Shown: piece after piece, positions 3,573-40,497 of the stretch | How positions within the stretch are numbered: the first letter of the stretch is position 1 | Layout: every line of letters starts with the position of its first letter | From: Escherichia phage vB_EcoM_JN03 | Strand: one strand, 5' to 3' | Sequence record: OR885871 | Length of the DNA stretch: 64,000 nucleotides | Notes under the pieces: model-generated | Database searches by the model: none | Told to the model about the DNA's origin: nothing | What the model saw: only the letters and a program-made list of their open reading frames with translations | Made by a program: the position numbers and the translations under genes

Positions 3573-5072
3573 ATGTCTGAGATCCAAATAGTCAAAGTGA
3601 ACGAAGTTAGAATGCGGATCCTTGCCGAGGATTATATCCGTGAAGAACTCAACGATTACTTCAAATTTGAAGATCCTAATTTCCAACCGAATCCGTTCAG
3701 TAAATGGGACGGCGTAGTGCGGTTGTTCACAAAGAGTTCTGGGCTTATCGACATCGGCCTGTTATTTGAGGTGTTCAAATTCTGTAAGATGAACGGTTAC
3801 ACCATCAAATTAGATCCGGCCTTAAAATATATTCAAGATATTCCGGATGAAGAAATTCATGCGTTCATCGATACATTGAATGCGGTGTACCGAGACGAAA
3901 ACAAACAATATCAAAAAGCGATTGTCCGCGATTATCAATTTGATTCTGTTGCCACAGCAATACGCCAAAGCAGATGTGTCCTCGAAGCTGCCACGAGTGC
4001 TGGCAAATCCTTTATTTTGTACATCATGGCGCGTTACTACAGGCAACGCAGAGATGCCCTCGAAAGTAATCTGAGGACGTTAATCGTTGTACCATCCATT
4101 CATTTGGTGACTCAGTTGTATGACAACTTCGAAGAATATAGCCACGGGACAGAATGGAAACCATTGATGAATGTCCAGACAATATACGAAGGGGCAACGA
4201 AAGAGATTTTCAAACCCATAGTTATTTCAACTTGGCAAGGTATCCAGAACCAACCCAAAGAGTGGTTCCATCAATTTGGAGATATCGTCGTCGACGAAGT
4301 ACATACATCAAAATCAGATAAATTGTCTTACATCTTGAATAACTGTATTAACGCTGATCAACGTTTGGGAGTAACCGGAACCCTGGCGAATACAAAGGTC
4401 GCAGGGTTACAAGTCGTTGCTCACTTTGGCGCATATCATAAAATTATTACAGCGCGCGATTTAATCGATCTAGGATTTGCGGCGGACATCAATGTTAATA
4501 TGATTGAAGTCATACATCCTATGGCAGACTGTATTGAAATGCACGGTGCTGAGTATCAAAAGGAAATAGAATTCCTCATTGCTAACGAACGCCGCAATGA
4601 ATTGATAGCTCGAATGGCTCTATCTTTGAAAGGGAACGTCGCAGTAATGTTCGAACGTATCGATGCACACATGATGTTGGTTTATGAAATGCTATCGGCA
4701 GTCAAGAAAAACGTATTCGTCATCAACGGGGAAGTCAAGACAGAAGTTCGTAAACAGATTCAGGCTGCTATGGAAGAAGGGGAAGATATAACACTGTTAG
4801 CATCATATGGCACTATGCAACAGGGCGTATCTATCAAAAAACTCCATCATCTGATTTTGGCCCATCCCAGCAAATCTTATATCCGTGTTATACAGACATT
4901 GGGGCGTTTGATGCGTCAGCATTCCTCTAAGGATGTTGCGCGAATCTGGGACCTGGTAGACAACCTGCGCTACAACGGTTCTTACAACCATGCTCTCAGG
5001 CATTCTCATGAGAGATATAAATTTTATCTTATGGAGCGCCACCCTGTTAAAATGAAAAAAGTGGCGCTCTAA
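3573..5072 (+). CDS. uvsW: UvsW-like SF2 DNA helicase
   Basis: Walker A ATSAGKS, DEVH-type box VVDEVHT, C-terminal HPSKSYIRVIQTLGRLMR; blocks recalled from T4 UvsW (VISTWQGIQNQPKEW, ARIWDLVDN) are present. Confidence 0.85.
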   Translation: MSEIQIVKVNEVRMRILAEDYIREELNDYFKFEDPNFQPNPFSKWDGVVRLFTKSSGLIDIGLLFEVFKFCKMNGYTIKLDPALKYIQDIPDEEIHAFIDTLNAVYRDENKQYQKAIVRDYQFDSVATAIRQSRCVLEAATSAGKSFILYIMARYYRQRRDALESNLRTLIVVPSIHLVTQLYDNFEEYSHGTEWKPLMNVQTIYEGATKEIFKPIVISTWQGIQNQPKEWFHQFGDIVVDEVHTSKSDKLSYILNNCINADQRLGVTGTLANTKVAGLQVVAHFGAYHKIITARDLIDLGFAADINVNMIEVIHPMADCIEMHGAEYQKEIEFLIANERRNELIARMALSLKGNVAVMFERIDAHMMLVYEMLSAVKKNVFVINGEVKTEVRKQIQAAMEEGEDITLLASYGTMQQGVSIKKLHHLILAHPSKSYIRVIQTLGRLMRQHSSKDVARIWDLVDNLRYNGSYNHALRHSHERYKFYLMERHPVKMKKVAL

Positions 5073-5077
5073 CTATT

Positions 5078-5443
5078 TCAAAGATCTTGGTTCACATAGG
5101 CGGGGGTTGCCTCGCCTTCTTTGTTGGAACCAAATAAACAGTCGATCGTGCCAATACATTGTTGTAGCACTTTCGGCTCAAGAATCTGAGAAAACAATTC
5201 TTCATTAGATGCCAGCAATGGAACAACTTTCACTTCCCGCGCCTGGCCTTGTTGAATAATGCCAACATACAGACCTTTGTTATTTGGGAGTAATGGTATC
5301 ACCATCATCGGTGTCACAACAAACCCCGATGTACAGAAAAGGCTTTGTAAATAAACGCCTTTTAATGACGAACGTTGTTCTGATATGGAAAGAATTGCTT
5401 CTTGGTCTTCCCCTACTGCGTATAAACCAACAAATTGCTTCAT
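5078..5443 (-). CDS. hypothetical protein, 121 aa
   Basis: Minus-strand ORF convergent with uvsW; ATG start with weak GAGAAA RBS. Confidence 0.4.
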   Translation of the reverse strand: MKQFVGLYAVGEDQEAILSISEQRSSLKGVYLQSLFCTSGFVVTPMMVIPLLPNNKGLYVGIIQQGQAREVKVVPLLASNEELFSQILEPKVLQQCIGTIDCLFGSNKEGEATPAYVNQDL

Positions 5444-5781
5444 ATGTATTTCTCGCGTGTTAGCAAACTTGGCTACATAATAATGTCATGCTCTGTTTAG
5501 ACCAAATAAAATATTTTACTTGTTGAATAAAAATCGCTTTCTTGTTGAACAATCCGTGCGTAATATACGAGTTGTGAGCTTTGCGAGCAACGAGTATTAT
5601 CACGAGCGAAGCGAGTAGACTGATAAAGAAAGGTTTTATTAAAACAGAATATTATAAATGCCGTCAGGCATTTATTTATCGCGCGTAGGGCAATTTATCA
5701 CTTGTTCTATAACTACAAACACGCGATACTAATTTGCGTCAAATATGACTTGAACCCCACTATATTTTGAGGATACAACTA

Positions 5782-6450
5782 ATGCAAGAGATCACTCTCT
5801 CCGAACGCACTTTACAACTGCTGGCTAACTTTGAAACCATCTGCCCCTCTATCGTTCTGGCACCTGGTAAAAAGTTGCGCACTGTTAACGATTCCAGTAC
5901 AGTTATCGCTATTGCCGACATTGACGAAGACTTCCCGTTCGAATTCCCGATTCTGGATCTGACCAAATTGCTGGCAATCCAGCGTCTGCCGAGTTTTAAA
6001 GGCGGTAAAATTGAAATGTCGGAAGACCACATTTTGCTGAAAGGTGAAAACTCCCAACTGCAATTCTGGCGTTCCGCTAAAGAACTGACTGTCGTTCCAG
6101 CAGACAGCATCGATCTTCCGTCTGTAGAATTTGAAGCAACAGTCACTCCTGAAAAAATGAAAGAGCTGACTCGCGCCTGTTCTACTCTGGGCCACAAAAC
6201 TGTACGCCTGGTGGCCAGCGGCGGTAAAACTCGTCTGGTGGGCACGACCACTACTATCGACAATTCCAACGATTACACTGTTGAGTTGGGTGAAACAACT
6301 CTGGGTGATTTTGCTATGCCTGTTGATGTGGTCAACCTGAAAATGATCGAAGGCAACTACGTGATCCGCGCCTGTGCCGAAATGCAACTGGTTAACTTCC
6401 AATCCGCAGACGGCACCATCAACTATTACGTCGGCATGCAGCTGGATTAA
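5782..6450 (+). CDS. 45: DNA polymerase sliding clamp (gp45-like)
   Basis: About 222 aa, GAGGA RBS, highly biased codon usage; loose similarity to T4 gp45 and immediately upstream of clamp-loader genes. Confidence 0.75.
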   Translation: MQEITLSERTLQLLANFETICPSIVLAPGKKLRTVNDSSTVIAIADIDEDFPFEFPILDLTKLLAIQRLPSFKGGKIEMSEDHILLKGENSQLQFWRSAKELTVVPADSIDLPSVEFEATVTPEKMKELTRACSTLGHKTVRLVASGGKTRLVGTTTTIDNSNDYTVELGETTLGDFAMPVDVVNLKMIEGNYVIRACAEMQLVNFQSADGTINYYVGMQLD

Positions 6451-6480
6451 TCAATAACGATTCGGCGCTTTATTATCGGT

Positions 6481-6505
6481 GGCGGGGGTTTCCCCGCCCT
6501 TTGAA
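6481..6505 (+). terminator. weak hairpin/attenuator between gp45 and gp44
   Basis: GGCGGGG-gttt-CCCCGCC stem-loop followed by a short T run. Confidence 0.35.
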
Positions 6506-6528
6506 ACGTTTTATCTAAAGAGGCTGCA

Positions 6529-7518
6529 ATGTCTAACATCACTATCGTCACAGATCAATACGCGTGGGAAAACAAATATCGTCCTGACAATCTGGATGAG
6601 ATCGTCCTCCCTTCAGACGTCCGTGCAAAAATCCATGGCTATGTTACATCAGGCAATGGAAACATCCCCTCAATGCTGTTCTATTCCCCTCAGCCTGGCA
6701 CGGGCAAGACTACTTCTGCTCTGGCTGTGTGCAACGAAATCGGTTGTATCAAACCGTTGATGATCAATGCGTCACTGGATAACAGCATTGATGTCATCCG
6801 TGACCGTGTTATTCAATACGCAACTGGCGTCAGTGTTTTCGGTGGCCGCAAAGTCGTTATCCTCGATGAAGTTGAGCGACTTTCCATGGCGGCGCAGGAA
6901 TCCCTGAAAGGCATCGTAGAGAAAGTCTCCAAAAACTGCTCCTTCATCCTGACGACTAATGCGAAACAGCGCGTTAACGAACCTCTGCGTTCCCGCTGTC
7001 GTGAAATTGATTTTATCTGGTCCGAAAAGGAAGCAGATGAAGTTAAACTCCAATTCATGCGTCGTTGCGCAACTATCCTGACAGAGGAAGGTATTCCGTA
7101 TGAAGCTGGTGTAATTGCTTCCATTGTGAAAGCATATTTCCCAGATAATCGCAAAATTATGGGAACTCTTCAGGATAATGCCACCACGTTTGGTAAAATC
7201 GATGAACGCGCTCTGGCACAGGTTAAAGCAGGGGAATTCCAAGCGCTGGTTGATTTCCTGAAAACCAATGATTGGGCTGGGATGAAGCAGTGGGTGACCG
7301 ACAACCAAAACTACATCACTGAAGATTTTTATTCCCGTTTCTTCCATTTCTGCGTTCCCCAGAACAAGGAAAAGACTCCTTTGATTCAAAAAGAGTCAAT
7401 CCCTGATCTGGTATGTGTCTGTGGTCAGTCTCAGATTGAACATCGTTCCGTCGGCGACGTCTGGTTACACGGCGTTTACTTCTTGACTAACGTCATGCTC
7501 AACATCAAATGGAAGTAA
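6529..7518 (+). CDS. 44: clamp loader large subunit (gp44-like AAA+ ATPase)
   Basis: Walker A PQPGTGKTT, Walker B ILDEVE, SRC-like arginine motif; AAAGAGG RBS. Confidence 0.9.
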   Translation: MSNITIVTDQYAWENKYRPDNLDEIVLPSDVRAKIHGYVTSGNGNIPSMLFYSPQPGTGKTTSALAVCNEIGCIKPLMINASLDNSIDVIRDRVIQYATGVSVFGGRKVVILDEVERLSMAAQESLKGIVEKVSKNCSFILTTNAKQRVNEPLRSRCREIDFIWSEKEADEVKLQFMRRCATILTEEGIPYEAGVIASIVKAYFPDNRKIMGTLQDNATTFGKIDERALAQVKAGEFQALVDFLKTNDWAGMKQWVTDNQNYITEDFYSRFFHFCVPQNKEKTPLIQKESIPDLVCVCGQSQIEHRSVGDVWLHGVYFLTNVMLNIKWK

Positions 7519-7974: not shown

Positions 7975-8439
7975 ATGGCGCGTAATACGCTGGACATCTT
8001 AAAACTTTCAGCTGTCAACGATGAGGCCAGCATTGTTGACTGTATGGTTGAAGTTCAATTGAACCAAGACAAACCAGGGATTTTCCTGGGTATCAAGGAA
8101 ACGCTGAGTCGGATAGGGGTTAACACTCGTCAAGAGCCTAACACCTTGTATCAAACGTGCCATATTCTGCATAAATTTGGCAGATATCACATCGTGCATT
8201 TCAAGCATTTGTTCATGCTAGATGGGCACTACAACGGCTTTACGCGTGAAGATGTCCTGCGTATGAATCGGATTATACGGCTTCTGGAGCAATGGAATAT
8301 GGTTAAGATCTTGCATCCGGAACAAATAACCGAAGTGGCTGACATGTCTCGGATCAAAGTTGTAAAACATGACCAAGTTTCTGAGTGGAAATTGGTTCCA
8401 AAATACACCATTCGCCCAAGTCGGGCAAAAAGCGAATAA
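7975..8439 (+). CDS. regA: translational repressor RegA
   Basis: ETLSRIGV...LYQTCHILHKFGRYHIVHFKHLFMLDGH...WKLVPKYTI matches the T4 RegA pattern; conserved position after gp62. Confidence 0.8.
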   Translation: MARNTLDILKLSAVNDEASIVDCMVEVQLNQDKPGIFLGIKETLSRIGVNTRQEPNTLYQTCHILHKFGRYHIVHFKHLFMLDGHYNGFTREDVLRMNRIIRLLEQWNMVKILHPEQITEVADMSRIKVVKHDQVSEWKLVPKYTIRPSRAKSE

Positions 8440-8455
8440 CTGGAGTCGCTATATT

Positions 8456-9319
8456 ATGACAACTACATTTAATAAAAACGTGAGATTGAATTTGGCTTTT
8501 GGTAATGCGGCTGGAGATATTACAGCCCCTGACTTCGGTAAAATTCGCAATCAGGCCAAACTGGTTCTGGAAGAGACCCGCGAATTACTGGAAGCGGCTT
8601 ATTTCGATCATGACATCAAACTTGAGCTGGTGGCAACTCCAAAAGAAGACACCGATGATGTTGATATGGATAAAATCCTGAAAGCCATCATGGACGCTCA
8701 GGGTGATATCACAACTGTTAATGACGGCGTGGCCCATATCGCTGGGTTTAATGGTGATGAATGTTTACAACGCGTGTTTGCCTCTAACATGAGCAAATTT
8801 ATTCGCTCAGAAGATGAAGTCGGTCCGGCACTGGAATATTATTATTCACGCGGTTTCCCAGATGGCCAGTTACGCGTTGAAGGTGAATTCCCTCAGGCAT
8901 GCATCAAAGTGAATGAGACTGTGATGTGGAATGGCAAAGAATATCCGAAAGGAAAATTCCTGAAAAACATGGCTGTGTTCAAAGAGCCTGATTTCTCTGA
9001 TATGCTGACGAATACCCCTTCCCGTCAGATCAATGACATCGTTGCCAGCATGGCAATTGAAGAAGGTCAGGTATTTATTGATGATCTGAACGGCGTGGCG
9101 TTGGTATCTCCAAAAACGTTGGAAGTAATTCTTTCTATGGCAGTTGAAAAATCTTCTCGACCCGTAGATGTTAACGGCCAAATTGAAAGTTATGTGCCAG
9201 CGTATATCATTAACGATACCAATATGCCTAAGCTGTGTGGGGTGTGGGGTGCTAATGTTCGTGTATACGCGTGCGCACCTGTTCAAAACACTGTGACACA
9301 CCTCTCTCGCTTCGATTAA
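8456..9319 (+). CDS. MazG-like all-alpha NTP pyrophosphohydrolase domain protein (N-terminal) with unknown C-terminal domain
   Basis: N-terminal AKLVLEETRELLEAAYFDHD and NMSKFIRSE resemble MazG/HisE EExxE/D motifs; 287 aa. Confidence 0.35.
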   Translation: MTTTFNKNVRLNLAFGNAAGDITAPDFGKIRNQAKLVLEETRELLEAAYFDHDIKLELVATPKEDTDDVDMDKILKAIMDAQGDITTVNDGVAHIAGFNGDECLQRVFASNMSKFIRSEDEVGPALEYYYSRGFPDGQLRVEGEFPQACIKVNETVMWNGKEYPKGKFLKNMAVFKEPDFSDMLTNTPSRQINDIVASMAIEEGQVFIDDLNGVALVSPKTLEVILSMAVEKSSRPVDVNGQIESYVPAYIINDTNMPKLCGVWGANVRVYACAPVQNTVTHLSRFD

Positions 9320-9342: not shown

Positions 9343-9369
9343 ACAGAGGCTATAATGGCCTCTGTTTTT
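9343..9369 (+). terminator. rho-independent terminator
   Basis: ACAGAGGC-tataatg-GCCTCTGT hairpin followed by TTTTTG. Confidence 0.6.
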
Positions 9370-9388: not shown

Positions 9389-10612
9389 ATGAAAGATAAA
9401 CCATATGACATCCCATATTGCGGTGTCCGTGAAACCAAAATCAAATCAGCCCATCCTATGTTAAGTTCATTCCACCGCCAGCTGGCATATGAATGGATGA
9501 GGGATCGTTATGCGATACATGTCAAGAAGGACGTGCAATGCCTTCCAGCGCCATGGACGGATAATCCGGTATTACGCCAAGTCAAGTTTTGTAACGTGCG
9601 GAGAGAGCACGATAGGCAGTCTCGAAATTTGATCAATAATATCATCCTCGATCAGGATCTCACGCTATCTGACAAAATGTTCAACTGTGTATTGTTCCGC
9701 ATGTACAACATGTGGGAACCTATACAGGCTTTGGGTGGTCCATGGACGATCGAAGAATTCGGAAACATAAATCTTGAATGGTGTCGAGATGTTCTTCAGG
9801 AATTCGAATCTAAAGGTGGCAAAGTTTTCACCAATGCGTTTAATACAGGCGGTCTGAAACAATGCCTGGCTTTCCCTGAACTAGTTGTCAACCACAAGGA
9901 GCAACGCTTTGGCGGCATGAAAGTAAAAGTCCATCGGGTTGGCGGTGTTATAGATGAAATGGATTACAAGGTTGCCAAGAAGCTGGCCGAAGATAATCCT
10001 GGTGAATACAAAATAGAAGGCTGGGAACCATACATGCCGATGCGAGTCATCCGCTCTTTGAAGGCATTCGTCAACAAACACCCTCATTACTTTGATCGCC
10101 TCAGGGAATTTAGCCGTCCCGACTCTGTTTACCAGGCGATGTATGACGACATTGAGGGGCTTGGACCATTCTTGGCATACCAGATTTGGGTTGATTTTAC
10201 ATACATCGATGAATATCCATTCAGTGAAAACCACTTCACTATCGCTGGTCCAGGTTGCCGTGCTGGTATCGATCTGTTATTTTTGGACAAGGACGGCATG
10301 ACGCATGAAGAATGCATATTCTGGGTTCGTGATCATCAAGATCAATTGTTCGCTCAGTATGGGTATAAACGTAATGAATTTTGGTCGGCAGAAGAACCGG
10401 AAGATCGTTGCATGAATGTTATGCAGCTGGAGAACATGTTCTGTGAACTTCAGAAATATACCCGCTGCGTTGAGGCGGTGATGCGCGGGGAGAAACCTCG
10501 AGGAAAGGTGGGGTATGACGGGAATGGCAGTGCGTATAAGCAACGTTGTGATGAAGTCGTCCTCAAACGTGGTTCCGTGAATCTTTTAGAACGTTTGAAG
10601 AAACCTGAATAA
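9389..10612 (+). CDS. hypothetical enzyme-sized protein, 407 aa (candidate nucleotide/base-modification enzyme)
   Basis: ATG with GAGAGGA RBS; no P-loop; no family recognisable by eye; occupies the position where T4 has DNA polymerase. Confidence 0.55.
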   Translation: MKDKPYDIPYCGVRETKIKSAHPMLSSFHRQLAYEWMRDRYAIHVKKDVQCLPAPWTDNPVLRQVKFCNVRREHDRQSRNLINNIILDQDLTLSDKMFNCVLFRMYNMWEPIQALGGPWTIEEFGNINLEWCRDVLQEFESKGGKVFTNAFNTGGLKQCLAFPELVVNHKEQRFGGMKVKVHRVGGVIDEMDYKVAKKLAEDNPGEYKIEGWEPYMPMRVIRSLKAFVNKHPHYFDRLREFSRPDSVYQAMYDDIEGLGPFLAYQIWVDFTYIDEYPFSENHFTIAGPGCRAGIDLLFLDKDGMTHEECIFWVRDHQDQLFAQYGYKRNEFWSAEEPEDRCMNVMQLENMFCELQKYTRCVEAVMRGEKPRGKVGYDGNGSAYKQRCDEVVLKRGSVNLLERLKKPE

Positions 10613-10727
10613 AGATTCCCTTTACTTCATTCTTCAATAACTCTTTTCAACGTATTATTGACCTCACTTAAACGAAGCGCCCTGGCAAACGGGGCGCACA
10701 TTTGAACTGAAACAGGAAGACTATACC

Positions 10728-12746
10728 ATGGCAGAATTCAAACCCTTCGCAACGGCAGTTAATAACAACGTGCTGGCGATGTCCGCAACTGGTCTGTTCA
10801 TGACCAATATCGATAAAGATGCTCTTTGGGATCTGTATCTGGAATCTTTCCCTGCTGGTACCAACCCGCTCTACCGTGAGCGTACCGAGCACGACTGTAC
10901 CTGCTGTAAACAATTCATCCGTAACATCGGCGGTGTGGTCACCATCGACTCCGACCTGAACGTGATTTCCATCTGGGACAACATTGATCTGGGTAATGAA
11001 TATGACGTGGTGGCTGCGGCGCTGTCGGCGTATGTCAAACAACACGCAATCGTCGATGTTTATTTTAACGATTCTGCCAAAGTCGGCCTGTCTCACAATC
11101 ACGAATCTGGTGAAGATGGCAAAATCCGTACTTATAATCATTTCCATACCCAATTACTTGGTAGCTATGTTCTGCGTCCGGACGCAATCGCTTCGAAAAA
11201 AGGTGAAATCCGCCAGGCTATTGAATTGTTTGAACGCGGTCTGCGTGAAATTACTCTGGAATCAGCTGAAATCGTTCTGGAACTGATTGACCAGAATTCT
11301 CTGTATCGCGGCGCAGAACACAAAGCAGCAGTGAAGGGATTTGTTGAAACCAAAAAGGCATATGAACAAGTCCCCGAATCAGCCCGTTCTCTTTGGGCAT
11401 GGCATACTGGATACCGTTCAAACAATCATGTTCCACACGGCATCCGTAACACAGTTATCGGCACTCTGCTGACAGATATCAGCGAAGGCGTGGAACTGGA
11501 AAAGGCTGTTAAATCGTTTGAATCCAAAGTTGCTCCGGCGAACTACAAACGTCCGACAGCGCTGGTTTCAAAATCCATGATCGAAAACGCTCAGAAAGAA
11601 GTTATTGCTCTGGGTTTGGAAGACTCACTGGCGCGTCGTTATGCGGTTTATGATGATCTGACAATCAACAACGTTCTGTTCGCAGATCTGGCTGCTCAGA
11701 AAGCGATGGATCCGTTTGCACAGCTGGCCGCCGAAGTGAAAACTCCGACCAAGTCCCTGGAAAAAGTTGAAGAGATCAGCGTTGATGATTTCCTGAGCAA
11801 TGTTCTGCCAAAAGCGCATTCAATGGAAGTGCTTGTAGAGAATTCTCATACTAGCAACCTGATGTCCCTGGTTGCTCCGGCGAACCCAGATGCGCCTAAC
11901 TTGTTCAAGTGGAACAACGGTTTCTCCTGGTCTTACAATGGTGAAGTGGCCGATTCCATTAAAGAACGTGTAAAGGCTGCTGGCGGTAAAGTTGACGGGT
12001 ATCTGCGCGTTTCCTTGGCGTGGCACAATAACGACGACCTCGATCTGCATATGTTCAACAACATGGAGCACGTTTACTTCCGCGATCGCCGCTCTATGAC
12101 AGGTGCCCATCTGGATATCGATATGAACGGTATGGATGGTATTGATCCAAACCGCGCTCCGGTGGAAAATATCATCTTTACAGATGAAAGCAAGCTGCGC
12201 GATGGTGAATACCGTTTCGAAATCCACAACTACAATCAACGTGAAAAAATCGACGAAGGGTTTGAAGTAGAAGTAGAATACAAAGGCGCAACGCATCGTT
12301 TCAGCCATCCTGGCCTGAAAGATCAGGGGCGTATCACTGCAGTCATCCTGACTGTTAAAGACAAACAAGTTGTTGGCATTAAGTCCGAACTGGCTAATGT
12401 TGATAAGTCTAAAGAAGTTTGGGGTATCAAGACTGCGACCTTCCAGAAAGTACAGCTGGTCCTGAACTCACCAAACCATTGGGATGGCGAGCAGACAGGC
12501 AACAAGCACGTGTTCTTCATCCTGGAAGGTTGTGCTAATCCTGAAGGTACTCGTGGTTTCTACAACGAATATCTGAAGCCAGAACTGGATAAACATCGTA
12601 AGGTTTTTGAAATGTTGGGTAGTAAAATGAAAGTCCAGCCGAATGAAAACCAACTGTCCGGTCTGGGATTCTCGACGACGCAACGCAACCACGTGTTCGT
12701 CAAAGTGTCCGGCGCGTTTAACCGTACTGTAAAAGTCATTTTCTAA
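10728..12746 (+). CDS. large hypothetical protein, 672 aa, codon-optimised
   Basis: AGGAAG RBS; strongly host-optimal codons; Cys cluster HDCTCCKQF; acidic segments WHNNDDLDLH and HLDIDMNGMDGID; no Walker motifs. Confidence 0.7.
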   Translation: MAEFKPFATAVNNNVLAMSATGLFMTNIDKDALWDLYLESFPAGTNPLYRERTEHDCTCCKQFIRNIGGVVTIDSDLNVISIWDNIDLGNEYDVVAAALSAYVKQHAIVDVYFNDSAKVGLSHNHESGEDGKIRTYNHFHTQLLGSYVLRPDAIASKKGEIRQAIELFERGLREITLESAEIVLELIDQNSLYRGAEHKAAVKGFVETKKAYEQVPESARSLWAWHTGYRSNNHVPHGIRNTVIGTLLTDISEGVELEKAVKSFESKVAPANYKRPTALVSKSMIENAQKEVIALGLEDSLARRYAVYDDLTINNVLFADLAAQKAMDPFAQLAAEVKTPTKSLEKVEEISVDDFLSNVLPKAHSMEVLVENSHTSNLMSLVAPANPDAPNLFKWNNGFSWSYNGEVADSIKERVKAAGGKVDGYLRVSLAWHNNDDLDLHMFNNMEHVYFRDRRSMTGAHLDIDMNGMDGIDPNRAPVENIIFTDESKLRDGEYRFEIHNYNQREKIDEGFEVEVEYKGATHRFSHPGLKDQGRITAVILTVKDKQVVGIKSELANVDKSKEVWGIKTATFQKVQLVLNSPNHWDGEQTGNKHVFFILEGCANPEGTRGFYNEYLKPELDKHRKVFEMLGSKMKVQPNENQLSGLGFSTTQRNHVFVKVSGAFNRTVKVIF

Positions 12747-12784
12747 TTGATTTTGACCACAAATTCGTAATAAGGAACAATGAA

Positions 12785-13156
12785 ATGTTTGATCAAGCAA
12801 CCCGTTTAAAACTGCGTTTCAACTCTAACAAAGGTCTGCTGTCTGTTGAGCAGGTTTGGGATCTGAACCTGAATGCCCTAAACGAACTGGCGAAAGACCT
12901 CAGCCGTCAGGTGAAGGAAGCCGCCAGCGATGAAGAAGATTTCATCGGCGTGAAAAGCGCAGTCGACTCTCAGTTACAACTGCGTTTCGATATCGTGAAA
13001 GCTATCATCGGTGTTAAACTGAAAGAACGTGACGAAAGCGCAACCGCCGCCGAACGTAAAGCGAATAACCAGGCGATCATGGAACTGATCCAGCGTAAGA
13101 AACAGCAGGAACTGGAAGGTCTCTCTGTTGAAGAACTGGAAAAACTCCTGAAATAA
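12785..13156 (+). CDS. hypothetical protein, 123 aa, charged and probably helical
   Basis: AAGGAA RBS; followed by the terminator at 13180. Confidence 0.55.
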   Translation: MFDQATRLKLRFNSNKGLLSVEQVWDLNLNALNELAKDLSRQVKEAASDEEDFIGVKSAVDSQLQLRFDIVKAIIGVKLKERDESATAAERKANNQAIMELIQRKKQQELEGLSVEELEKLLK

Positions 13157-13179
13157 TCTGTCGGCTCCGGCCTGAGCAA

Positions 13180-13205
13180 CCCCGCCGTGTGCGGGGTTTC
13201 TTTTG
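13180..13205 (+). terminator. rho-independent terminator
   Basis: CCCCGC-cgtgt-GCGGGG hairpin followed by TTTCTTTTGG. Confidence 0.6.
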
Positions 13206-13215
13206 GACAAAGAAT

Positions 13216-13452
13216 ATGAAACAAATTACTAAGACAGTACAAATCACCCAATATCAAACGGATGACGGCAGAGTGTTCGATACTCTTGGTCAGGCCGAAC
13301 ATTATGAGAAGATGAAGTCCGGTATTCGCAAGGTATGCCCTTCTTGTGATGGCAAAGGTCGCGACTCTCCGTCTGGCGACGGGCGTGATATGACGACTTG
13401 TCATTATTGTGGTGGTAAAGGCTGGGTAGAAAAGAAAGAGATATGGGGTTAA
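13216..13452 (+). CDS. small zinc-ribbon protein (CxxC...CxxC), 78 aa
   Basis: CPSCDGKG and CHYCGGKG motifs (DnaJ-type CxxCxGxG zinc finger). Confidence 0.5.
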   Translation: MKQITKTVQITQYQTDDGRVFDTLGQAEHYEKMKSGIRKVCPSCDGKGRDSPSGDGRDMTTCHYCGGKGWVEKKEIWG

Positions 13453-13862
13453 TGAAACCTGTCATCTGTGATTACTGCGGCCTTCCTGCCAAATACGTCA
13501 GTGGTGATGTACTCTACCCTCATCGCCCAGATCTACACAAACTGAAGTTCTGGGTATGCTCGCCATGCGACGCTCGTGTGGGTTGCCATACCCATGGGGA
13601 TGGTAGACAACCTCTGGGAAGGATGGCGAATGCCGCTCTCCGTGCTGCTAAGCAGGAAGCTCATAGGTCGTATGACCCTATCTGGAAAAGTGGGCAGAGG
13701 AGCAGGAGTGATGCTTACAGCTGGCTGGCTCATAATCTGGGGATCAAGAAGCGCGATTGCCATATCGGCTTGTTCGATATCGATATGTGCCGTAAAGTAG
13801 TCGCTGTGTGTAATCAACTAGAGGTGTCAAACGATGTCAAAGGAAATACAAGAATCTTTTGA
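13452..13862 (+). CDS. Cys-rich zinc-binding protein, 136 aa
   Basis: TAATG coupling to the upstream gene; CDYCG...CSPCD cysteine pairs. Confidence 0.5.
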   Translation: MKPVICDYCGLPAKYVSGDVLYPHRPDLHKLKFWVCSPCDARVGCHTHGDGRQPLGRMANAALRAAKQEAHRSYDPIWKSGQRSRSDAYSWLAHNLGIKKRDCHIGLFDIDMCRKVVAVCNQLEVSNDVKGNTRIF

Positions 13863-14085
13863 AAAGTTATCTCAGGTAATGACCGACTGCAACCGCCGAA
13901 ATTATTGCGATGAAGCGTATACGCAATTGAAAACCGTCGTCGAATCTGAGTTGAATAACCTTTCAACTTTTAAAGATATTCAGACCGAAGTGCTATATCT
14001 GTCGGATGAAGATTTAAGGCGTTGTCCCCGCAAGATTTACCAATTACTGGATCGTTTGGTGAAAGTGGGGGTGGATAATGGGTAA
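13834..14085 (+). CDS. hypothetical protein, 83 aa
   Basis: GAGGTG RBS 7 nt upstream. Confidence 0.45.
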   Translation: MSKEIQESFEKLSQVMTDCNRRNYCDEAYTQLKTVVESELNNLSTFKDIQTEVLYLSDEDLRRCPRKIYQLLDRLVKVGVDNG

Positions 14086-14803
14086 TCGTGAAGGGATTAA
14101 ACTCACACAAGAACTTCTGAAGTCACATATTGCTGAAGTGATTTATGAAGACCGTGAAGTCGGTGGCCATCGTGTCATTACATGCCACTTCAAGATGGAC
14201 AATGGCTTCGTCGTCTGGGGGAAGAATAGTTCAACTTCTATCGACCCAGCCAACTTTGATGAAGAGTTGGGTAAGAAACTGGCCTATGAAAAGACCTTCT
14301 CCCAGCTGTGGGAACTGGAAGCATATCGCGCGATGGTAGAAAGGCAGATTATCGATGTGTCCGTCAAAGATGCTAAGATCAACATTGATGAATATGTGTC
14401 AGAAAGGGAAGCGATACATGAGATGGGTGGTTCTGAATTCCTTAAGGGTAAAGGACAATCCGTCGTGTTTCGTCATCCCAAGGATCCAAGTCGGGGATTT
14501 CGAGTTGAATTTGTTCGCACCGATAATGAACGTTATAACGAACGGCGTAATGGTGAAGCAAGATCTTTGGTGGAAGCGTATCTTCGCTCATTCATGACTT
14601 CTGAAGAACTAAATTCTGAACTTGTCTTGCGTTTGGCGAAAACGTGTAATGCTGCTTCAGGGGATTATCCGTGGTGTGACCTGTCAGAAGACAAACGCCA
14701 AGCAGCTTGTGATCGTGTTAAGAAATTCTTGTTAGATCCGAAAGCCCAACCTGGTGATTCCGTGGGGGCGCTGTATAGAGCCATCGTGGTGTCCTACTTG
14801 TGA
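14078..14803 (+). CDS. hypothetical protein, 241 aa
   Basis: GGGGGTGG RBS; overlaps the upstream stop. Confidence 0.55.
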   Translation: MGNREGIKLTQELLKSHIAEVIYEDREVGGHRVITCHFKMDNGFVVWGKNSSTSIDPANFDEELGKKLAYEKTFSQLWELEAYRAMVERQIIDVSVKDAKINIDEYVSEREAIHEMGGSEFLKGKGQSVVFRHPKDPSRGFRVEFVRTDNERYNERRNGEARSLVEAYLRSFMTSEELNSELVLRLAKTCNAASGDYPWCDLSEDKRQAACDRVKKFLLDPKAQPGDSVGALYRAIVVSYL

Positions 14804-14848
14804 TTTTCAAAAGTCTTTCAAAATCAATAACGTCCGGCAAATTGCTGG

Positions 14849-14877
14849 GCGTTTCAATTAACAAGCCAAGGTATAAT
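14849..14877 (+). promoter_or_regulatory. sigma70-type early promoter candidate
   Basis: GTTTCA -35-like element and perfect TATAAT, about 25 nt upstream of the ATG at 14903. Confidence 0.4.
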
Positions 14878-14902
14878 GGTCTAATTGTAAAGCGAGGAAA
14901 TC

Positions 14903-15097
14903 ATGTCCGTAAAAATGAAAATTGATATGACCAAACCATTTTTGCGTTCAGGAGTTGACTCTCTTGACTCACAGTTTAAACCCAGCGAAGTTTTAATCCA
15001 ACAGATTGAGACTAATCGCGAATTCATAGAACACATGCTGGTGAAGCCGGAAGGTGAAGCCGTCCATACCACTAAAGAAGGTAATAACGATGATTGA
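14903..15097 (+). CDS. small protein, 64 aa, translationally coupled to the vWA gene
   Basis: GAGGAA RBS; stop overlaps the vWA ATG by 8 nt. Confidence 0.45.
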   Translation: MSVKMKIDMTKPFLRSGVDSLDSQFKPSEVLIQQIETNREFIEHMLVKPEGEAVHTTKEGNNDD

Positions 15098-17306
15098 ATC
15101 ATTAACATTTAAGAATGCGGTTGCGACCGTCGCGCCGTCTAACCATGTAATCGTTGTGGATATCTCCGGTTCCATGTATCGTTCACTTCCAGAAGTCCGT
15201 AAGCATCTGAAGGAGAACCTGCCTTCCCTGGTGAAACCGGAAGATACTGTGAGCATCCTTTACTTTTCATCTCGCGGTGATTTCGGAACGGTATTTGCCG
15301 GACGTCAGATTAACAGTGCAACTGACCTCAGTGAGATCAATAATCTAATTGACCGTTTCCTGAAGCCTTCTGGTTGTACTGGTTTTGTTGAGCCGCTGAA
15401 ACTGGCTGCGGAAACTGCCATTAGCCTGAATAAACCTGGTTATGTTAACAACCTGGCATTCATGACCGACGGGTATGACAACTGCTGGCGTTCTAATGAA
15501 ATCCTGGATGCCGCTGAAGTACTGCCCAAAGCGTTTGATAACATTACCTTCATCGAATACGGTTGGTATTGTAATCGCGAACTGCTGGGGCTAATGGCAG
15601 AACGTTCTGGTGCGACCCACGTATTCGCCGAAGGACAGAATGAATATCAGACCGAATTGGAAAACGTGCTGAAAACTTCTTCACCGAAAGTTGTAGTCGA
15701 TGTTCCTCTGGTTTATACCCATGCCATTTATGTTGAAAATGGCGTGGCGACTGTTTTAGCTGTGCATCCTGATGAAGAGCACCCTATTGGCCACGTCAGC
15801 ATCCCTGAAAGCGTTTCTCAGCTGTGGGTTGTAAACCCCAACATGATCGACCAGCTGGATAATCTGGCAGACATCCAAGCGGCATACGTGCTGGCATTTT
15901 ACGGCGTGTATACCATGGACGCAGATTTGGTTTGGGCTGCGCTGAAGAAAACGGGAGATGTTCGTTTCATCAAACAATACAGCAACTGTTTCACCAAGCA
16001 GGACTATTCCAACATCAAAGTCGATCTGACCCAGGCTATCGTGGATGAAACTCTGCGCGGCGTAGATGGCATCGATTACAATATGGTTCCGGCTGAAGAC
16101 GCCACCACCATTGTTGATGTTCTGACGTATTTGGCTGAAGCAGATGTCTCTATCGTCACCAAGCATCCGCTATTCTCTTACAAGAGCATTGGGCGCGGTA
16201 CTATACAAAAAGTTGACGACACCGAAGACAAGTTGGCCGAAGAGATTGCGAATGCGACTTCTAAAGAAGAGCGTAAAGCCCTGGCGCTCAAACTGGCCGA
16301 GCACGAAGATTGGACGCCGGAATTCAATCCAGCAGATGATAAAGGGATTGTCCCGATCAGCAATTTGGTCTATAATTCAGAACGTCCTAACATCAGTGTG
16401 CAGACAGTTCAACACGGAACGGTTATTGTGCCTGAGTTTGTACAGAAGAAATATGAACTTCCTGAAGAGCTGGGAACCTGGCGTTATCGCAATTACACCA
16501 TTGTCAAGGATGGTATCATCAACCTGAAAACAATGCCTATCACTGCAGATTCTCCGATTGTTCGGGCTAAGGTGGCACAGGATTTGACTGCCATGGGTGT
16601 TCATGTGTTTGGTGGGCCGGAAGTCTTCATTGTAAATCTGGAAAGTGTCCCAATGGTTAACCGCGCCATGACAAAGAATATCAGTGCTGCTGAATTCTTT
16701 GCAGACAATGTGCGCCGTGAAGCATTGAAGGCAAAGCAAAAAGTTCTGAAATTCTACCGTGATGAACTGGTTGGCAAAGGCAACGCTACTGGTCTGGCTT
16801 CAAAATATGGCAAAGAAGCGGCTGATTTCCTGTCAGCAAACGGCATTCGCGACTATGGATTTTCACCGAAGACTTCTTCTGTAGAATCAACCGATGTCTA
16901 TATGAGTCGTGAATTGAATGTGAAAATCAAAGGCGCATCTTCACTGCCGAGCATCGCGTCTGTTATCAAAAAACAGACGGACGGTAAAAAACTGAATGTC
17001 GCTGATCAGCTGATCGCTAATGCCCTGGCCGAATACAATGCGTTTGTTAAATCGCCGATGATCACCAGCGTACCGGAAGAGACTCAGAAAAAGCTGATCG
17101 AAAGTTGGATTGGTGATGCAGCAAAAGCAGCTATCAACGAAGTTCGATCTCTGAACAAAACGCTGTCCAAGGTAGTTTATGGGATTGTTGCAGGCCATGG
17201 TTGGTTTACCGACCTGGATTTGGAAGAATCCACTATGGATGTGGAAGTTGATGGGGTGAAATACACTGTCACTGCCGAACTGGCTGAAAAAGAAGTCAAA
17301 ATCTAA
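15090..17306 (+). CDS. von Willebrand factor A (vWA) domain protein with MIDAS motif, 738 aa
   Basis: N-terminal VVVDISGSM (DxSxS MIDAS) followed by T and D motifs typical of vWA folds; long C-terminal region of unknown function; optimised codons. Confidence 0.75.
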   Translation: MIESLTFKNAVATVAPSNHVIVVDISGSMYRSLPEVRKHLKENLPSLVKPEDTVSILYFSSRGDFGTVFAGRQINSATDLSEINNLIDRFLKPSGCTGFVEPLKLAAETAISLNKPGYVNNLAFMTDGYDNCWRSNEILDAAEVLPKAFDNITFIEYGWYCNRELLGLMAERSGATHVFAEGQNEYQTELENVLKTSSPKVVVDVPLVYTHAIYVENGVATVLAVHPDEEHPIGHVSIPESVSQLWVVNPNMIDQLDNLADIQAAYVLAFYGVYTMDADLVWAALKKTGDVRFIKQYSNCFTKQDYSNIKVDLTQAIVDETLRGVDGIDYNMVPAEDATTIVDVLTYLAEADVSIVTKHPLFSYKSIGRGTIQKVDDTEDKLAEEIANATSKEERKALALKLAEHEDWTPEFNPADDKGIVPISNLVYNSERPNISVQTVQHGTVIVPEFVQKKYELPEELGTWRYRNYTIVKDGIINLKTMPITADSPIVRAKVAQDLTAMGVHVFGGPEVFIVNLESVPMVNRAMTKNISAAEFFADNVRREALKAKQKVLKFYRDELVGKGNATGLASKYGKEAADFLSANGIRDYGFSPKTSSVESTDVYMSRELNVKIKGASSLPSIASVIKKQTDGKKLNVADQLIANALAEYNAFVKSPMITSVPEETQKKLIESWIGDAAKAAINEVRSLNKTLSKVVYGIVAGHGWFTDLDLEESTMDVEVDGVKYTVTAELAEKEVKI

Positions 17307-17314
17307 ATTCAACT

Positions 17315-17339
17315 GGCGGGGAAACCCGCCTTCATTTTG
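17315..17339 (+). terminator. rho-independent terminator
   Basis: GGCGGG-gaaa-CCCGCC hairpin followed by TTCATTTTG. Confidence 0.6.
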
Positions 17340-17343
17340 AGAT

Positions 17344-17661
17344 ATGCTTATGTCAAACAAACCAACTTATGTTGAAGTAATGCGTGTTCTGGCTCAGTAC
17401 GCTTGTGACAACCTGAACATGGAAACTTGGCGCAACGGGGATCACAAGGACAAGTTTGATAACATTGATGATAATATCGATGCTTTAGCGCCGTTACGGG
17501 TTAAGAATGATCTCGGCGGTGACGATCTTGACATGATTGAGCTGGTCATGGAAATCGAAGAAGAGTACGATGTAGAAATTAGTGACGAGTGGGTGGGTAA
17601 ACATGGAGATGATCCTACCCTCGGAGAGTTAGCTGAACTCGTCGTTGCCCTGCGCAAGTAA
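17344..17661 (+). CDS. acyl-carrier-protein-like protein lacking the phosphopantetheine-attachment serine
   Basis: DLGGDDLDMIELVMEIEEEYDVEISDE aligns with the ACP core [27 protein letters not shown], but the DSL serine is replaced by Asp. Confidence 0.6.
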   Translation: MLMSNKPTYVEVMRVLAQYACDNLNMETWRNGDHKDKFDNIDDNIDALAPLRVKNDLGGDDLDMIELVMEIEEEYDVEISDEWVGKHGDDPTLGELAELVVALRK

Positions 17662-17667
17662 CTGAAG

Positions 17668-17696
17668 ATCCCCAACGTTTGTTGGGGATTTTTACT
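17668..17696 (+). terminator. terminator hairpin (repeat A, copy 1)
   Basis: ATCCCCAAC-gttt-GTTGGGGAT 9-bp stem followed by TTTTTACTTTT. Confidence 0.6.
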
Positions 17697-17704
17697 TTTA
17701 GGGG

Positions 17705-17733
17705 TTTACTTCTATAAGGCAAATGCGTATTAT
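17705..17733 (+). promoter_or_regulatory. T4-type early promoter (GTTTAC -35, 17-bp spacer, TATTAT -10)
   Basis: GTTTACT at 17704-17710, 17-nt spacer, TATTAT; copy 1 of a repeated cassette. Confidence 0.55.
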
Positions 17734-17782
17734 TGAATTCATCGGGCGGGGCGTTCCCGTTCATTGAAAGAAGGTATATATT

Positions 17783-18023: not shown

Positions 18024-18088
18024 ATCCCAACAAACGTTGGGGATTTTTACTTTTAGGGGTTTACTTCTATAAGGCAAATGCGTATTAT
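18024..18088 (+). repeat. repeat A copy 2: terminator hairpin plus early promoter cassette
   Basis: About 65 bp nearly identical to 17668-17733; stem 18024-18044 with loop gttt flipped to aaac; TTTACT 18060-18065, TATTAT 18083-18088. Confidence 0.6.
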
Positions 18089-18139
18089 TCAATAACTGGC
18101 GAACGATGGGTTCACCAGGTTGAAAGGTAAGATTATATC

Positions 18140-39931: not shown

Positions 39932-40008
39932 AGTTCACATAGGGCGGTACACAACACCCCGCCGAATGAAAAGTGAAACGACCCAACTACATTATGAGGA
40001 ATTACATC

Positions 40009-40497
40009 ATGGCTACTACCAAAACTCTGATCACCAACGGCACCATCTCTTTTGAACTGAACACCGAAGTTGCAAAAGTTGAAATGTTCCGCATCGCTCA
40101 GGCAGCTGGCTTCACTGGTGGCAAAACTTCCTTCATGAATCTGCTGAACGGCAAAGTGAAAGCGACCAACGGCTTCACCCTGGTAGAGCAGGTTGTCGTA
40201 GACAAAGCCGTGGTTGCCAAGACTGCTGACAAGGTTGGCATGCTGAAAGACCTGGGCCATGACATCCACGTTGTCGAAGCGAACACCGAAACTTACGGCA
40301 CCATCGTAGTCGGTAAAGGTCGCATTCAGCTGAACCCGCTGAACAACGGAACCTTCTCCGTGATGGTATTCCCGAAAAAGGGTTATGACAACAGCGATAT
40401 CGTGAAAGCCGCTGGCGGTGAAGCGAAATCCCAGTATGTCAAAATGGGTAAACTGAGCGCCGACGCAGTAGAAACTCTGGTGAACAAACTGGCTTAA
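40009..40497 (+). CDS. abundant-type hypothetical protein, 162 aa (strongly optimised codons)
   Basis: GAGGAA RBS 7 nt upstream; own early promoter; codon usage like gp32 and gp45; no recognisable domain. Confidence 0.6.
   Translation: MATTKTLITNGTISFELNTEVAKVEMFRIAQAAGFTGGKTSFMNLLNGKVKATNGFTLVEQVVVDKAVVAKTADKVGMLKDLGHDIHVVEANTETYGTIVVGKGRIQLNPLNNGTFSVMVFPKKGYDNSDIVKAAGGEAKSQYVKMGKLSADAVETLVNKLA

What the first reader, a model, noticed from the sequence alone, without database searches (positions are those of the whole stretch)
10728..17661. Uncharacterised three-part module: codon-optimised 672-aa protein, vWA/MIDAS protein and a serine-less ACP-like protein
Three consecutive genes with their own terminators form a compact block sitting where a T4-like genome is expected to continue with replication genes after regA. 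The 738-aa protein starts with a textbook MIDAS motif (VVVDISGSM) followed by about 550 aa of unknown sequence. The 672-aa protein has a Cys cluster and acidic metal-binding-like segments but no nucleotide-binding loop. Both use strongly host-optimal codons, implying high expression, and a small coupled ORF (14903-15097) leads into the vWA gene. I know of no characterised phage system with this composition; it may be a metal-dependent protein-protein or protein-nucleic-acid machine for host takeover or anti-defence.
Basis: partly seen in the sequence, partly recalled or inferred. Interest (0 to 1): 0.78.

Follow-up and report, generated by a model that had tools for sequence, protein, structure and literature searches.

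The report
Two unrelated phage gene units, not one
The supposed three-protein machine in this Salmonella/E. coli phage is really two independent, still uncharacterised gene units: a very widespread large protein that always travels with a small partner, and a metal-site adaptor protein paired with a carrier-protein look-alike that has lost its active serine.

Summary
The window is a Kuttervirus (Ackermannviridae, ViI/CBA120-like) genome. The ORFs, the MIDAS motif, the Ser-less ACP, the ATGA-coupled 64-aa ORF and the codon bias are all real. The three genes are not consecutive, though: six other ORFs lie between them.

They are also not one module.
- **672-aa protein.** It is DUF8224 (PF26675), a very large phage family with 9,367 50%-identity clusters. 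Its constant partner is the overlooked 123-aa gene next to it: 80/80 loci anchored on DUF8224 and 80/80 anchored on the small gene hold both. Only Ackermannviridae loci have the vWA or ACP genes nearby (0/62 others).
- **LIMEstone1.** DUF8224 is truncated and the partner is gone, yet vWA and ACP are kept.
- **vWA protein.** In 37 non-Ackermannviridae loci it has no ACP, and only one has DUF8224 nearby.
- **ACP-like protein.** It is Ackermannviridae-only, sits directly after vWA (24/24), and always has Asp or Glu at the phosphopantetheine serine.

Structure models show a TerD-like acidic β-sandwich and an invariant CxxC…H in DUF8224. The vWA protein has an ArnB/ITIH-like vWA plus β-sandwich. 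Functions remain unknown; the mechanisms I propose are inferences.

The parts
10653..10697 (+). Promoter-like -10 (TATTAT, 10653-10658) and a leader hairpin (10677-10697) upstream of the 672-aa gene. Both are conserved in LIMEstone1, even though the ORF there is decayed.
   Evidence: Sequence read. The same leader is seen in L004, where the record annotates TATTAT as a putative promoter.
10728..12746 (+). DUF8224 (PF26675) protein, 672 aa. It has an N-terminal alpha/beta domain with an invariant C57-x-x-C60 and H138, a helical middle with invariant R275/R303/R304, and a TerD-like acidic beta-sandwich (about residues 420-555; D437, D439, D463, D465, E480, N481). The C-terminal beta domain carries a conserved SPNxW...H...E motif.
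12785..13156 (+). 123-aa partner of DUF8224: a conserved N-terminal motif (KLRF..KG.L..E.LWDL.L) followed by a long helical, coiled-coil-like tail. It has the second-highest CAI in the window (0.57).
   Evidence: 80/80 and 80/80 reciprocal adjacency
13178..13206 (+). Strong intrinsic terminator closing the DUF8224 + 123-aa unit.
13189..14803 (+). Four lineage-variable small genes that belong to neither unit: 87 aa (DnaJ-type CxxCxGxG zinc finger, weak hit), 139 aa (DUF3268 zinc finger), 83 aa, and 241 aa (N4 gp49/Sf6 gp66 family N-terminus).
   Evidence: Presence in 2, 15, 4 and 18 of 18 Ackermannviridae loci respectively; all four are absent from LIMEstone1.
14903..15097 (+). 64-aa ORF translationally coupled to the vWA gene (ATGA overlap at 15090-15093/15095-15097). 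It is conserved in Ackermannviridae.
15090..17306 (+). vWA/MIDAS protein, 738 aa. The vWA domain (about 1-195) plus a beta-sandwich resemble ArnB, ITIH1 and Sec23/24. Residues from about 300 to 738 have no match.
17315..17330 (+). GC-rich hairpin followed by a T-rich tract between vWA and the ACP-like gene (possible partial terminator).
   Evidence: A terminator is annotated at the equivalent site in LIMEstone1.
17344..17661 (+). ACP-fold protein, 105 aa, with Asp61 in place of the phosphopantetheine-bearing Ser. The helix II recognition segment is close to that of real ACPs. It is found only in Ackermannviridae.
17671..17738 (+). Terminator hairpin plus T-run, followed by a promoter-like TTTACT-17-TATTAT, closing the vWA/ACP unit. 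The cassette is repeated at 18026-18093.

Best explanation
The 6.9-kb block is not one machine. It holds two independent units brought together by lineage-specific synteny in Ackermannviridae (shown).

Unit 1 (10653-13206) is a self-contained operon with its own promoter and terminator. It encodes a DUF8224 protein and a 123-aa helical partner. This pair is a very widespread accessory cassette of large virulent phages. It usually lies among DNA replication and repair genes (shown).

Inferred for unit 1: the two proteins form an abundant early or middle complex. The large subunit would bind Zn through CxxC...H and Ca through the TerD-like acidic beta-sandwich. It would use its invariant Arg/Tyr-rich surface on a nucleic acid or nucleotide substrate. 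The role would be conditionally dispensable, of the host-takeover or anti-defence type. I put about 0.25 on this mechanistic part.

Unit 2 (14903-17738) is 64-aa ORF + vWA + ACP-like. The vWA protein is a MIDAS-dependent protein-binding adaptor that works on its own in other phage lineages (shown: independent distribution and a conserved MIDAS).

Inferred for unit 2: in Ackermannviridae the adaptor has acquired a non-acylatable ACP-fold partner. The carboxylate that replaces the carrier Ser (Asp or Glu in every homologue) would serve as the acidic ligand that completes MIDAS metal coordination. I put about 0.2 on this.
For: Separate units: a strong terminator follows the 123-aa gene, and hairpins follow vWA and ACP. 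Variable genes lie in between.

DUF8224/123-aa linkage: all 80 DUF8224-anchored IMG/VR loci have a same-strand 123-aa homologue. It is directly downstream in 77 and directly upstream in 3. All 80 loci anchored on the small gene have DUF8224 within 4 kb. The pair was also seen in CR8, Vibrio PG11, CcrSwift and CRW-SP2. Both genes have top-ranked CAI, comparable to the sliding clamp.

Independence from vWA/ACP: 0 of 62 non-Ackermannviridae DUF8224 loci have vWA or ACP. Of 37 non-Ackermannviridae vWA loci, none has ACP and one has DUF8224. PMBT1, L009 and L010 agree.

Dispensability: DUF8224 is truncated to residues 1-268 in LIMEstone1 and split in the Vi01 record.

Neighbours: PolA in 19, ligase in 15 and a DnaB-like helicase in 9 of 66 loci.

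ACP-like: only Asp or Glu occurs at the Ser position in 16 homologues. It is directly downstream of vWA in 24/24 Ackermannviridae loci. Only 20 clusters exist in 5.8 billion proteins.
Against: The 80-locus samples are the best-scoring relatives (at least 44% identity for DUF8224). The more distant homologues SP15_131 and AXL1 gp11 lack a detectable 123-aa neighbour. The Zn, Ca and nucleic-acid roles rest only on motif conservation and a fold match. Pfam TerD itself does not hit. That vWA works without ACP elsewhere weakens the idea that ACP is its ligand. Within Ackermannviridae all three genes are syntenic in 23 of 24 loci. One unrelated contig (L230) also has DUF8224 and its partner 4.5 kb from a vWA homologue, so a looser functional link is not excluded.
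Confidence: 0.6

Rival explanations
1. One reading: DUF8224, vWA and the ACP-like protein cooperate as one metal-dependent machine.
For: The three genes are syntenic in 23 of 24 Ackermannviridae loci. One unrelated 138-kb contig (L230) has DUF8224 and its partner 4.5 kb upstream of a vWA homologue, and another contig carries both about 25 kb apart. The beta-sandwich of DUF8224 weakly resembles DUF2135 (4/28 and 7/67 members, E about 0.02). From memory, not tested here, DUF2135 is fused to VIT-vWA proteins in bacteria, and ITIH (a VIT-vWA protein) is a top structural match of the vWA protein.
Against: The genes are distributed independently in 62/62 and 36/37 non-Ackermannviridae loci. LIMEstone1 lost DUF8224 and its partner but kept vWA and ACP. 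The units have separate terminators with variable genes between them. The DUF2135 similarity is below significance.
Confidence: 0.1
2. The vWA protein is a virion component: a packaged or injected protein, or a minor tail protein.
For: LIMEstone1 virion mass spectrometry found 6 peptides at 11% coverage, and the record says 'confirmed structural protein' (PMC3296691). One spectrum was found in CsCl-purified Sajous1 (PMC10892097). Some GenBank records label homologues 'minor tail protein' or 'tail protein'.
Against: The gene lies on the strand and in the region of early and middle replication genes, here and in T4-like phages. No TATAAATA late-promoter motif is nearby; there are only 3 in the window, at 157, 51354 and 56148. 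The same proteomes also detect clearly non-structural enzymes such as DNA ligase, gp44 and RegB. PHROG 2426 carries no function.
Confidence: 0.2
3. The ACP-like protein is a decoy of host ACP. It would dock on host ACP-client enzymes through a preserved helix II, but it cannot be phosphopantetheinylated, so it would block or redirect host lipid or other ACP-dependent metabolism independently of vWA.
For: Helix II (DDLDMIELVMEIEEEYDVEISDE) is nearly identical to that of real ACPs, with matches of E 5e-8 to B. subtilis ACP. It scores 30-40 bits on ACP models yet falls below every equivalog cut-off. The protein is very acidic (pI 4.2). The Ser is always replaced by Asp or Glu, a possible phospho-mimic. 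A 2026 preprint predicts a phage ACP-host FabZ contact for another phage ACP.
Against: The strict adjacency to vWA (24/24) and the conserved 25-residue N-terminal extension suggest a phage partner. There are no data on host binding.
Confidence: 0.2
4. DUF8224 and its partner belong to the thymidine hypermodification (5-NeOmdU) pathway of ViI-like phages.
For: The gene immediately upstream (9389-10612) is the homologue of ViI gp160, the aG/PT-PPlase1 (PF18723, E 2e-83). A MazG-like pyrophosphatase precedes it. In SP-15, a phage with hypermodified thymidine, the DUF8224 homologue follows a ThyX-type gene.
Against: Five other ViI gene products were sufficient to reconstitute 5-NeOmdU in lysates (PMC5889632). 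No gp160 or MazG homologue lies within 10 kb in the 62 other DUF8224 loci. DUF8224 is decayed in LIMEstone1, which keeps the gp160 homologue.
Confidence: 0.05
5. The 672-aa protein is a DNA-directed RNA polymerase, as some GenBank records state.
For: Records for FrontPhageNews, Se-B, pSC20 and Vibrio PG11 carry this label. The labels for the Utah Vi01-like phages appear to come from the structure-based (Phyre2) annotation that paper describes.
Confidence: 0.02

Closest known systems
TerD-family / DUF2135 / protease P-domain-type Ca-binding beta-sandwiches (e.g. Klebsiella TerD 2kxt, SCO6318 2qz7)
   Different: The Pfam TerD model does not hit. The domain is an insert in a 670-aa multidomain protein with about 500 further residues of unknown fold. 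No ter operon genes are nearby. Ca binding is untested.
ArnB / ITIH heavy chain / Sec23-Sec24 trunk type vWA + beta-sandwich proteins
   Different: About 440 C-terminal residues have no match. There is no FHA/zinc-ribbon partner (ArnA), VIT domain, MoxR ATPase or Ter genes nearby. The protein is phage-encoded and sits among early and middle genes.
Bacterial acyl carrier protein AcpP (PF00550)
   Same: It matches the PP-binding HMM and has strong helix II similarity. It is a small, very acidic protein.
   Different: The phosphopantetheine Ser is Asp or Glu in every homologue, so it cannot carry acyl groups. It has a conserved 25-residue N-terminal extension, scores below all NCBIfam ACP cut-offs, and has no phage fatty-acid or polyketide genes nearby.
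DUF8224 (Pfam PF26675)
   Same: Homologues at 48-97% identity carry this precomputed Pfam assignment over a uniform length of about 670 aa.
   Different: Nothing differs: this protein is an ordinary member. The family itself has no known function, and the held literature has no paper mentioning it.

Membership tests
vWA / MIDAS domain proteins (PF00092) | vWA Rossmann-like fold | tested here: met
vWA / MIDAS domain proteins (PF00092) | Complete MIDAS motif DxSxS...T...D | tested here: met
   D24, S26 and S28 are at least 90% conserved; T97 and D127 are invariant in 73 homologues of 34-90% identity.
vWA / MIDAS domain proteins (PF00092) | Divalent metal bound at the MIDAS and ligand carboxylate coordination | not testable with these tools
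   Needs metal analysis or a structure of the complex.
Acyl carrier protein (PF00550, functional carrier) | PP-binding four-helix domain | tested here: met
   PF00550, 30.7 bits against a cut-off of 20.8. PDB ACP hits down to E 5e-8.
Acyl carrier protein (PF00550, functional carrier) | Conserved Ser of the D-S-L motif that receives 4'-phosphopantetheine | tested here: not met
   Asp61 aligns with that Ser. All 16 Ackermannviridae homologues have Asp or Glu there. The protein therefore has the ACP fold but is not a functional carrier.
Acyl carrier protein (PF00550, functional carrier) | Reaches the curated NCBIfam ACP cut-offs | tested here: not met
   The best score is 40.5 bits against a cut-off of 71.
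DUF8224 (PF26675) | Match to the family model over the full length | tested here: met
   The model is absent from the local Pfam copy. All 118 full-length or nearly full-length homologues listed, from 97% identity down, carry the precomputed PF26675 assignment; the one exception is a 452-aa fragment. The name DUF8224 is shown.
TerD family / Ter stress-response system | TerD beta-sandwich fold | tested here: met
TerD family / Ter stress-response system | Match to the TerD sequence model | tested here: not met
   No Pfam TerD hit at E <= 1 in 67 full-length or 28 domain-only sequences. No PDB TerD hit by profile search.
TerD family / Ter stress-response system | Genomic association with terZABCDEF, TerY or TelA genes | tested here: not met
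   None is annotated or detected in the window region or in related loci.
DNA-directed RNA polymerase (GenBank label for the 672-aa protein) | Polymerase fold or family match | tested here: not met
   No such match.
Virion structural protein (vWA protein) | Reproducible, stoichiometric detection in purified virions | tested here: inconclusive
   6 peptides in LIMEstone1 against 1 spectrum in Sajous1. Non-structural enzymes were also detected in both studies.
Thymidine hypermodification pathway (5-NeOmdU) | Belongs to the gene set needed for the modification, or co-occurs with 5-HMUDK and aGPT-Pplase genes | tested here: not met
   It is not among the five sufficient ViI genes. No gp160 homologue is near DUF8224 in 62 non-Ackermannviridae loci.

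The most novel reading that the evidence does not exclude
The most novel reading has two parts. First, DUF8224 and its obligate about 125-aa partner could be a new two-component, Zn/Ca-dependent phage system. It is one of the largest uncharacterised phage families and is spread by horizontal transfer across unrelated large virulent phages. It would act on nucleic-acid ends or nucleotides, alongside the replication and repair genes, to overcome a host barrier. Second, the Ser-to-Asp/Glu ACP could be the first example of a phage ACP mimic that serves as a MIDAS ligand or hijacks host ACP clients.
Probability: 0.2. Interest if true: 0.75.

Novelty: new variant of a known kind. Interest (0 to 1): 0.42.

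Why it matters
The finding should be reframed. Someone wishing to study this region should not look for a three-protein complex. There are two separate targets.

The first is the DUF8224 + small-partner cassette. It is present in thousands of phage lineages, strongly conserved, apparently highly expressed, and dispensable in some isolates. That profile is typical of host-interaction or counter-defence functions.

The second is the vWA + non-acylatable ACP pair of Ackermannviridae. These phages are widely used for Salmonella, E. coli O157, Klebsiella and Dickeya biocontrol. Knowing what these abundant accessory proteins do bears on host range and on the safety of therapeutic phages.

The strict pairing of DUF8224 with its partner was not found in the held literature. 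It gives an immediate handle for co-expression and structure work.

Tried and rejected
- **Sequence searches of the 672-aa protein.** Searches against the PDB found nothing significant, whether with the single sequence, the full profile or a profile of the TerD-like domain alone.
- **Family libraries.** Pfam, NCBIfam and PADLOC gave no family for the 672-aa, 123-aa, 83-aa or 64-aa proteins. PHROGs gave only 'unknown function' families.
- **Fold searches.** Foldseek against BFVD returned only uncharacterised phage homologues. The afdb50 library was not available.
- **The 123-aa profile.** It gave only a chance-level match (E 0.6) to the SdhE-like protein 1puz, and no recurrent Pfam family.
- **A third conserved neighbour.** None was found for either unit beyond sub-lineage synteny.
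- **DUF8224-partner fusion proteins.** None among about 270 DUF8224 sequences.
- **Literature.** Searches for DUF8224, phage TerD-like proteins, Kuttervirus transcriptomics and phage ACPs found nothing bearing on these genes. The Aravind Ter paper is not held.
- **Late promoter.** The TATAAATA scan found none near the units.
Full report
**What the window is.** The region 10728-17661 is 97-98% identical at the DNA level to many Salmonella and E. coli Kuttervirus genomes (Ackermannviridae; CBA120, Det7, SFP10, ViI relatives). Annotated relatives show the same gene order: sliding clamp, clamp loader, regA, a MazG-like pyrophosphatase, a roughly 410-aa 'hypothetical', then the block in question.

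**Check of the observation.**
- The 738-aa protein carries VVVDISGSM and a Pfam VWA hit. Its MIDAS residues D24, S26, S28, T97 and D127 are conserved across 73 homologues down to 34% identity.
- The 105-aa protein passes the Pfam PP-binding threshold. Asp61 occupies the position of the phosphopantetheine-bearing Ser of the DSLD motif, as shown by HMMER alignments to B. subtilis ACP structures.
- The 64-aa ORF ends in an ATGA overlap with the vWA start.
- A codon adaptation index gives 0.50 for the 672-aa gene and 0.41 for vWA, against a window median of 0.31 and 0.51 for the sliding clamp.
- The genes are not 'three consecutive genes'. ORFs of 123, 87, 139, 83, 241 and 64 aa lie between the 672-aa and vWA genes.
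- The strong terminator is after the 123-aa gene, not after the 672-aa gene.

**The 672-aa protein and its real partner.** It belongs to a very large family. More than 7,500 clusters were found in the word-indexed search. The exhaustive profile search found 9,367 50%-identity representatives at E <= 1e-3. Almost all listed members are about 670 aa long and carry Pfam PF26675, which is DUF8224.

In phage GenBank records the family occurs in many lineages:
- Ackermannviridae, Mydovirus and Vequintavirinae;
- phiCbK-like siphoviruses and N4-like Vibrio phages;
- Bacillus myoviruses, including SP-15;
- Ma-LMM01 and jumbo phages.

In CR8, Vibrio PG11 and CcrSwift the gene directly downstream is a 123-140-aa homologue of the window ORF 12785-13156, with pairwise E of 1e-13 to 1e-24.
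- In 80 IMG/VR loci anchored on DUF8224, all 80 have this small gene on the same strand. It is directly downstream in 77, mostly 10-60 nt away, and directly upstream in 3.
- In 80 loci anchored on the small gene, all 80 have DUF8224 within 4 kb.
- Both samples are the best-scoring relatives. Two distant homologues (SP15_131 at 30% identity, and AXL1 gp11, which lacks the beta-sandwich insert) have no detectable small partner next to them.
- No fused DUF8224-partner protein was seen.
- The small gene has the second-highest CAI in the window (0.57).

The pair is preceded by a promoter-like TATTAT and a conserved leader hairpin. It is closed by a strong terminator.

The CxxC is kept even in the 25-30% identical SP-15 and AXL1 proteins. 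Weak, sub-threshold sequence echoes link the sandwich to DUF2135, proprotein-convertase P-domains and the Tk-SP jelly roll. Nothing supports the 'DNA-directed RNA polymerase' label found in some records.

The family is much smaller than DUF8224: 234 clusters. It occurs in Ackermannviridae and also in T4-like Slopekvirus and related 175-180-kb phages, in PBS1 and in Rhizobium phages. In those phages it sits among early genes and has no DUF8224, small partner or ACP nearby.

**The ACP-like protein.** Only 20 clusters exist in 5.8 billion proteins, all from Ackermannviridae. In all 16 aligned homologues the carrier Ser is Asp or Glu (DDLD or DELD). Helix II stays close to that of true ACPs. The protein falls below every NCBIfam ACP cut-off.

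**Test of the three-part module.**
- Of 61 vWA-anchored viral loci, the 24 Ackermannviridae loci all have the ACP-like gene directly downstream.
- Of those 24, 23 have DUF8224 and its partner 2-4.5 kb upstream.
- LIMEstone1 keeps the 64-aa ORF, vWA and ACP. It has only residues 1-268 of DUF8224 and no small partner.
- The 37 non-Ackermannviridae loci have no ACP, and only one (L230) has DUF8224 nearby.
- None of the 62 non-Ackermannviridae DUF8224 loci has vWA or ACP within 10 kb.
- The genes between the two units vary even within Kuttervirus.
- No further conserved neighbour exists for either unit.
- The commonest neighbours of the DUF8224 pair are PolA, a DNA/RNA ligase and a DnaB-like helicase.

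What is left is two units joined by lineage-specific synteny.

**How it most likely works (inference).**

Unit 1: DUF8224 and its partner probably form an abundant early or middle complex. A structural or catalytic Zn would sit at CxxC...H, and Ca at the TerD-like acidic sandwich. An invariant Arg-rich surface suggests a phosphate-bearing ligand. The setting among replication and repair genes points the same way. The wide horizontal spread, together with the loss in LIMEstone1 and the split CDS in the Vi01 record, suggests a conditionally dispensable host-interaction role. The Vi01 split comes from two 1-nt gaps at A-runs and may be a sequencing error.

Unit 2: the vWA protein is a MIDAS-dependent protein-binding adaptor. 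MIDAS sites complete their metal coordination with a ligand carboxylate, which is established for integrin I-domains. The conserved Asp/Glu that replaces the ACP Ser is therefore a candidate ligand. The alternative is that the ACP-like protein is a decoy for host ACP-client enzymes.

Whether vWA is packaged in virions is unresolved. LIMEstone1 gave 6 peptides and Sajous1 gave 1 spectrum.

**Comparison with what is known, and novelty.** Each protein is an ordinary member of a sequence family already present in hundreds of deposited genomes. Their functions are not known. A carrier protein with a conserved acidic substitution of its active Ser, fixed next to a MIDAS protein, is a new variant of known kinds. 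The obligate DUF8224-partner pairing is not mentioned in the held literature. Interest is moderate: these are real and tractable 'dark matter' targets, but the striking claim of a novel three-part machine does not hold.

Noticed in passing
window 9389-10612 (long ORF call starts at 9368): The 'hypothetical' gene immediately upstream of the finding matches PF18723 (HMUDK_hel, E 1.8e-83). It is the homologue of ViI orf00160/gp160 (Vi01_130c), the aG/PT-PPlase1 used to reconstitute the 5-NeOmdU thymidine hypermodification (PMC5889632). With the MazG-like gene at 8456-9319, this places DNA-hypermodification genes right after regA.
   Followed up: partly
window 17671-17738 and 18026-18093: A 68-nt cassette is present twice, 355 nt apart, at 93% identity. 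It consists of a terminator hairpin, a T-run and a promoter-like TTTACT-17-TATTAT. The differences fall in the hairpin loop (GTTT against AAAC). It looks like a reusable terminator and early-promoter module flanking small genes.
   Followed up: partly
L094 (Vi01 NC_015296) 5301-7320, equivalent to window 10728-12746: In the type phage Vi01 the DUF8224 gene is annotated as two CDS (Vi01_129c and Vi01_128c). The cause is two single-base gaps at A-runs around codons 481-488, inside the conserved VENI motif. Sajous1, pSC20 and SP1 records also show split annotations. This is either a homopolymer sequencing error or recurrent pseudogenisation.
   Followed up: partly
L004 (LIMEstone1) 3900-6761: In LIMEstone1 a homing endonuclease (F-LimVI) sits just upstream of the decayed DUF8224 gene, of which only residues 1-268 remain. 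The 123-, 87-, 139-, 83- and 241-aa genes are missing. A 111-aa ORF there is annotated 'nadV nicotinamide phosphoribosyl transferase'.
   Followed up: partly
GenBank MN871475.1 and OR844942.1 (hits H28, H32): Records named 'Pseudomonas phage Pa-sanjiao' and 'Enterococcus phage Efm 3-10' encode a DUF8224 protein 99.6% and 97.8% identical to this Salmonella Kuttervirus protein. The genomes look like Kuttervirus genomes. Host mislabelling or contamination is likely.
   Followed up: no
window 39994-40497: A 167-aa ORF has the highest codon adaptation index in the window (0.64) and no Pfam match. It is presumably a very abundant protein of unknown identity.
   Followed up: no
window 13189-13452 and 13443-13862: Two small Cys-rich proteins sit between the two units. 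One has a weak DnaJ-type CxxCxGxG zinc-finger hit; the other is a DUF3268 zinc finger (E 5e-37). Their presence varies among Ackermannviridae loci (2/18 and 15/18).
   Followed up: partly
L230 / L165 (IMGVR_UViG_3300036546_000172, 137,942 bp) and IMGVR_UViG_3300017769_000001 (L071, L205): Two non-Ackermannviridae viral contigs carry both a DUF8224 + partner pair and a homologue of the 738-aa vWA protein, 4.5 kb and about 25 kb apart, without an ACP-like gene. These are the only hints of a looser link between the two units outside Ackermannviridae.
   Followed up: partly
window 7975-8439 and 8369-9319: The mechanical ORF call for the MazG-like gene overlaps regA by 70 nt. Annotated relatives start it at the position equivalent to 8456, so the overlap is probably an artefact of taking the first start codon.
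   Followed up: no
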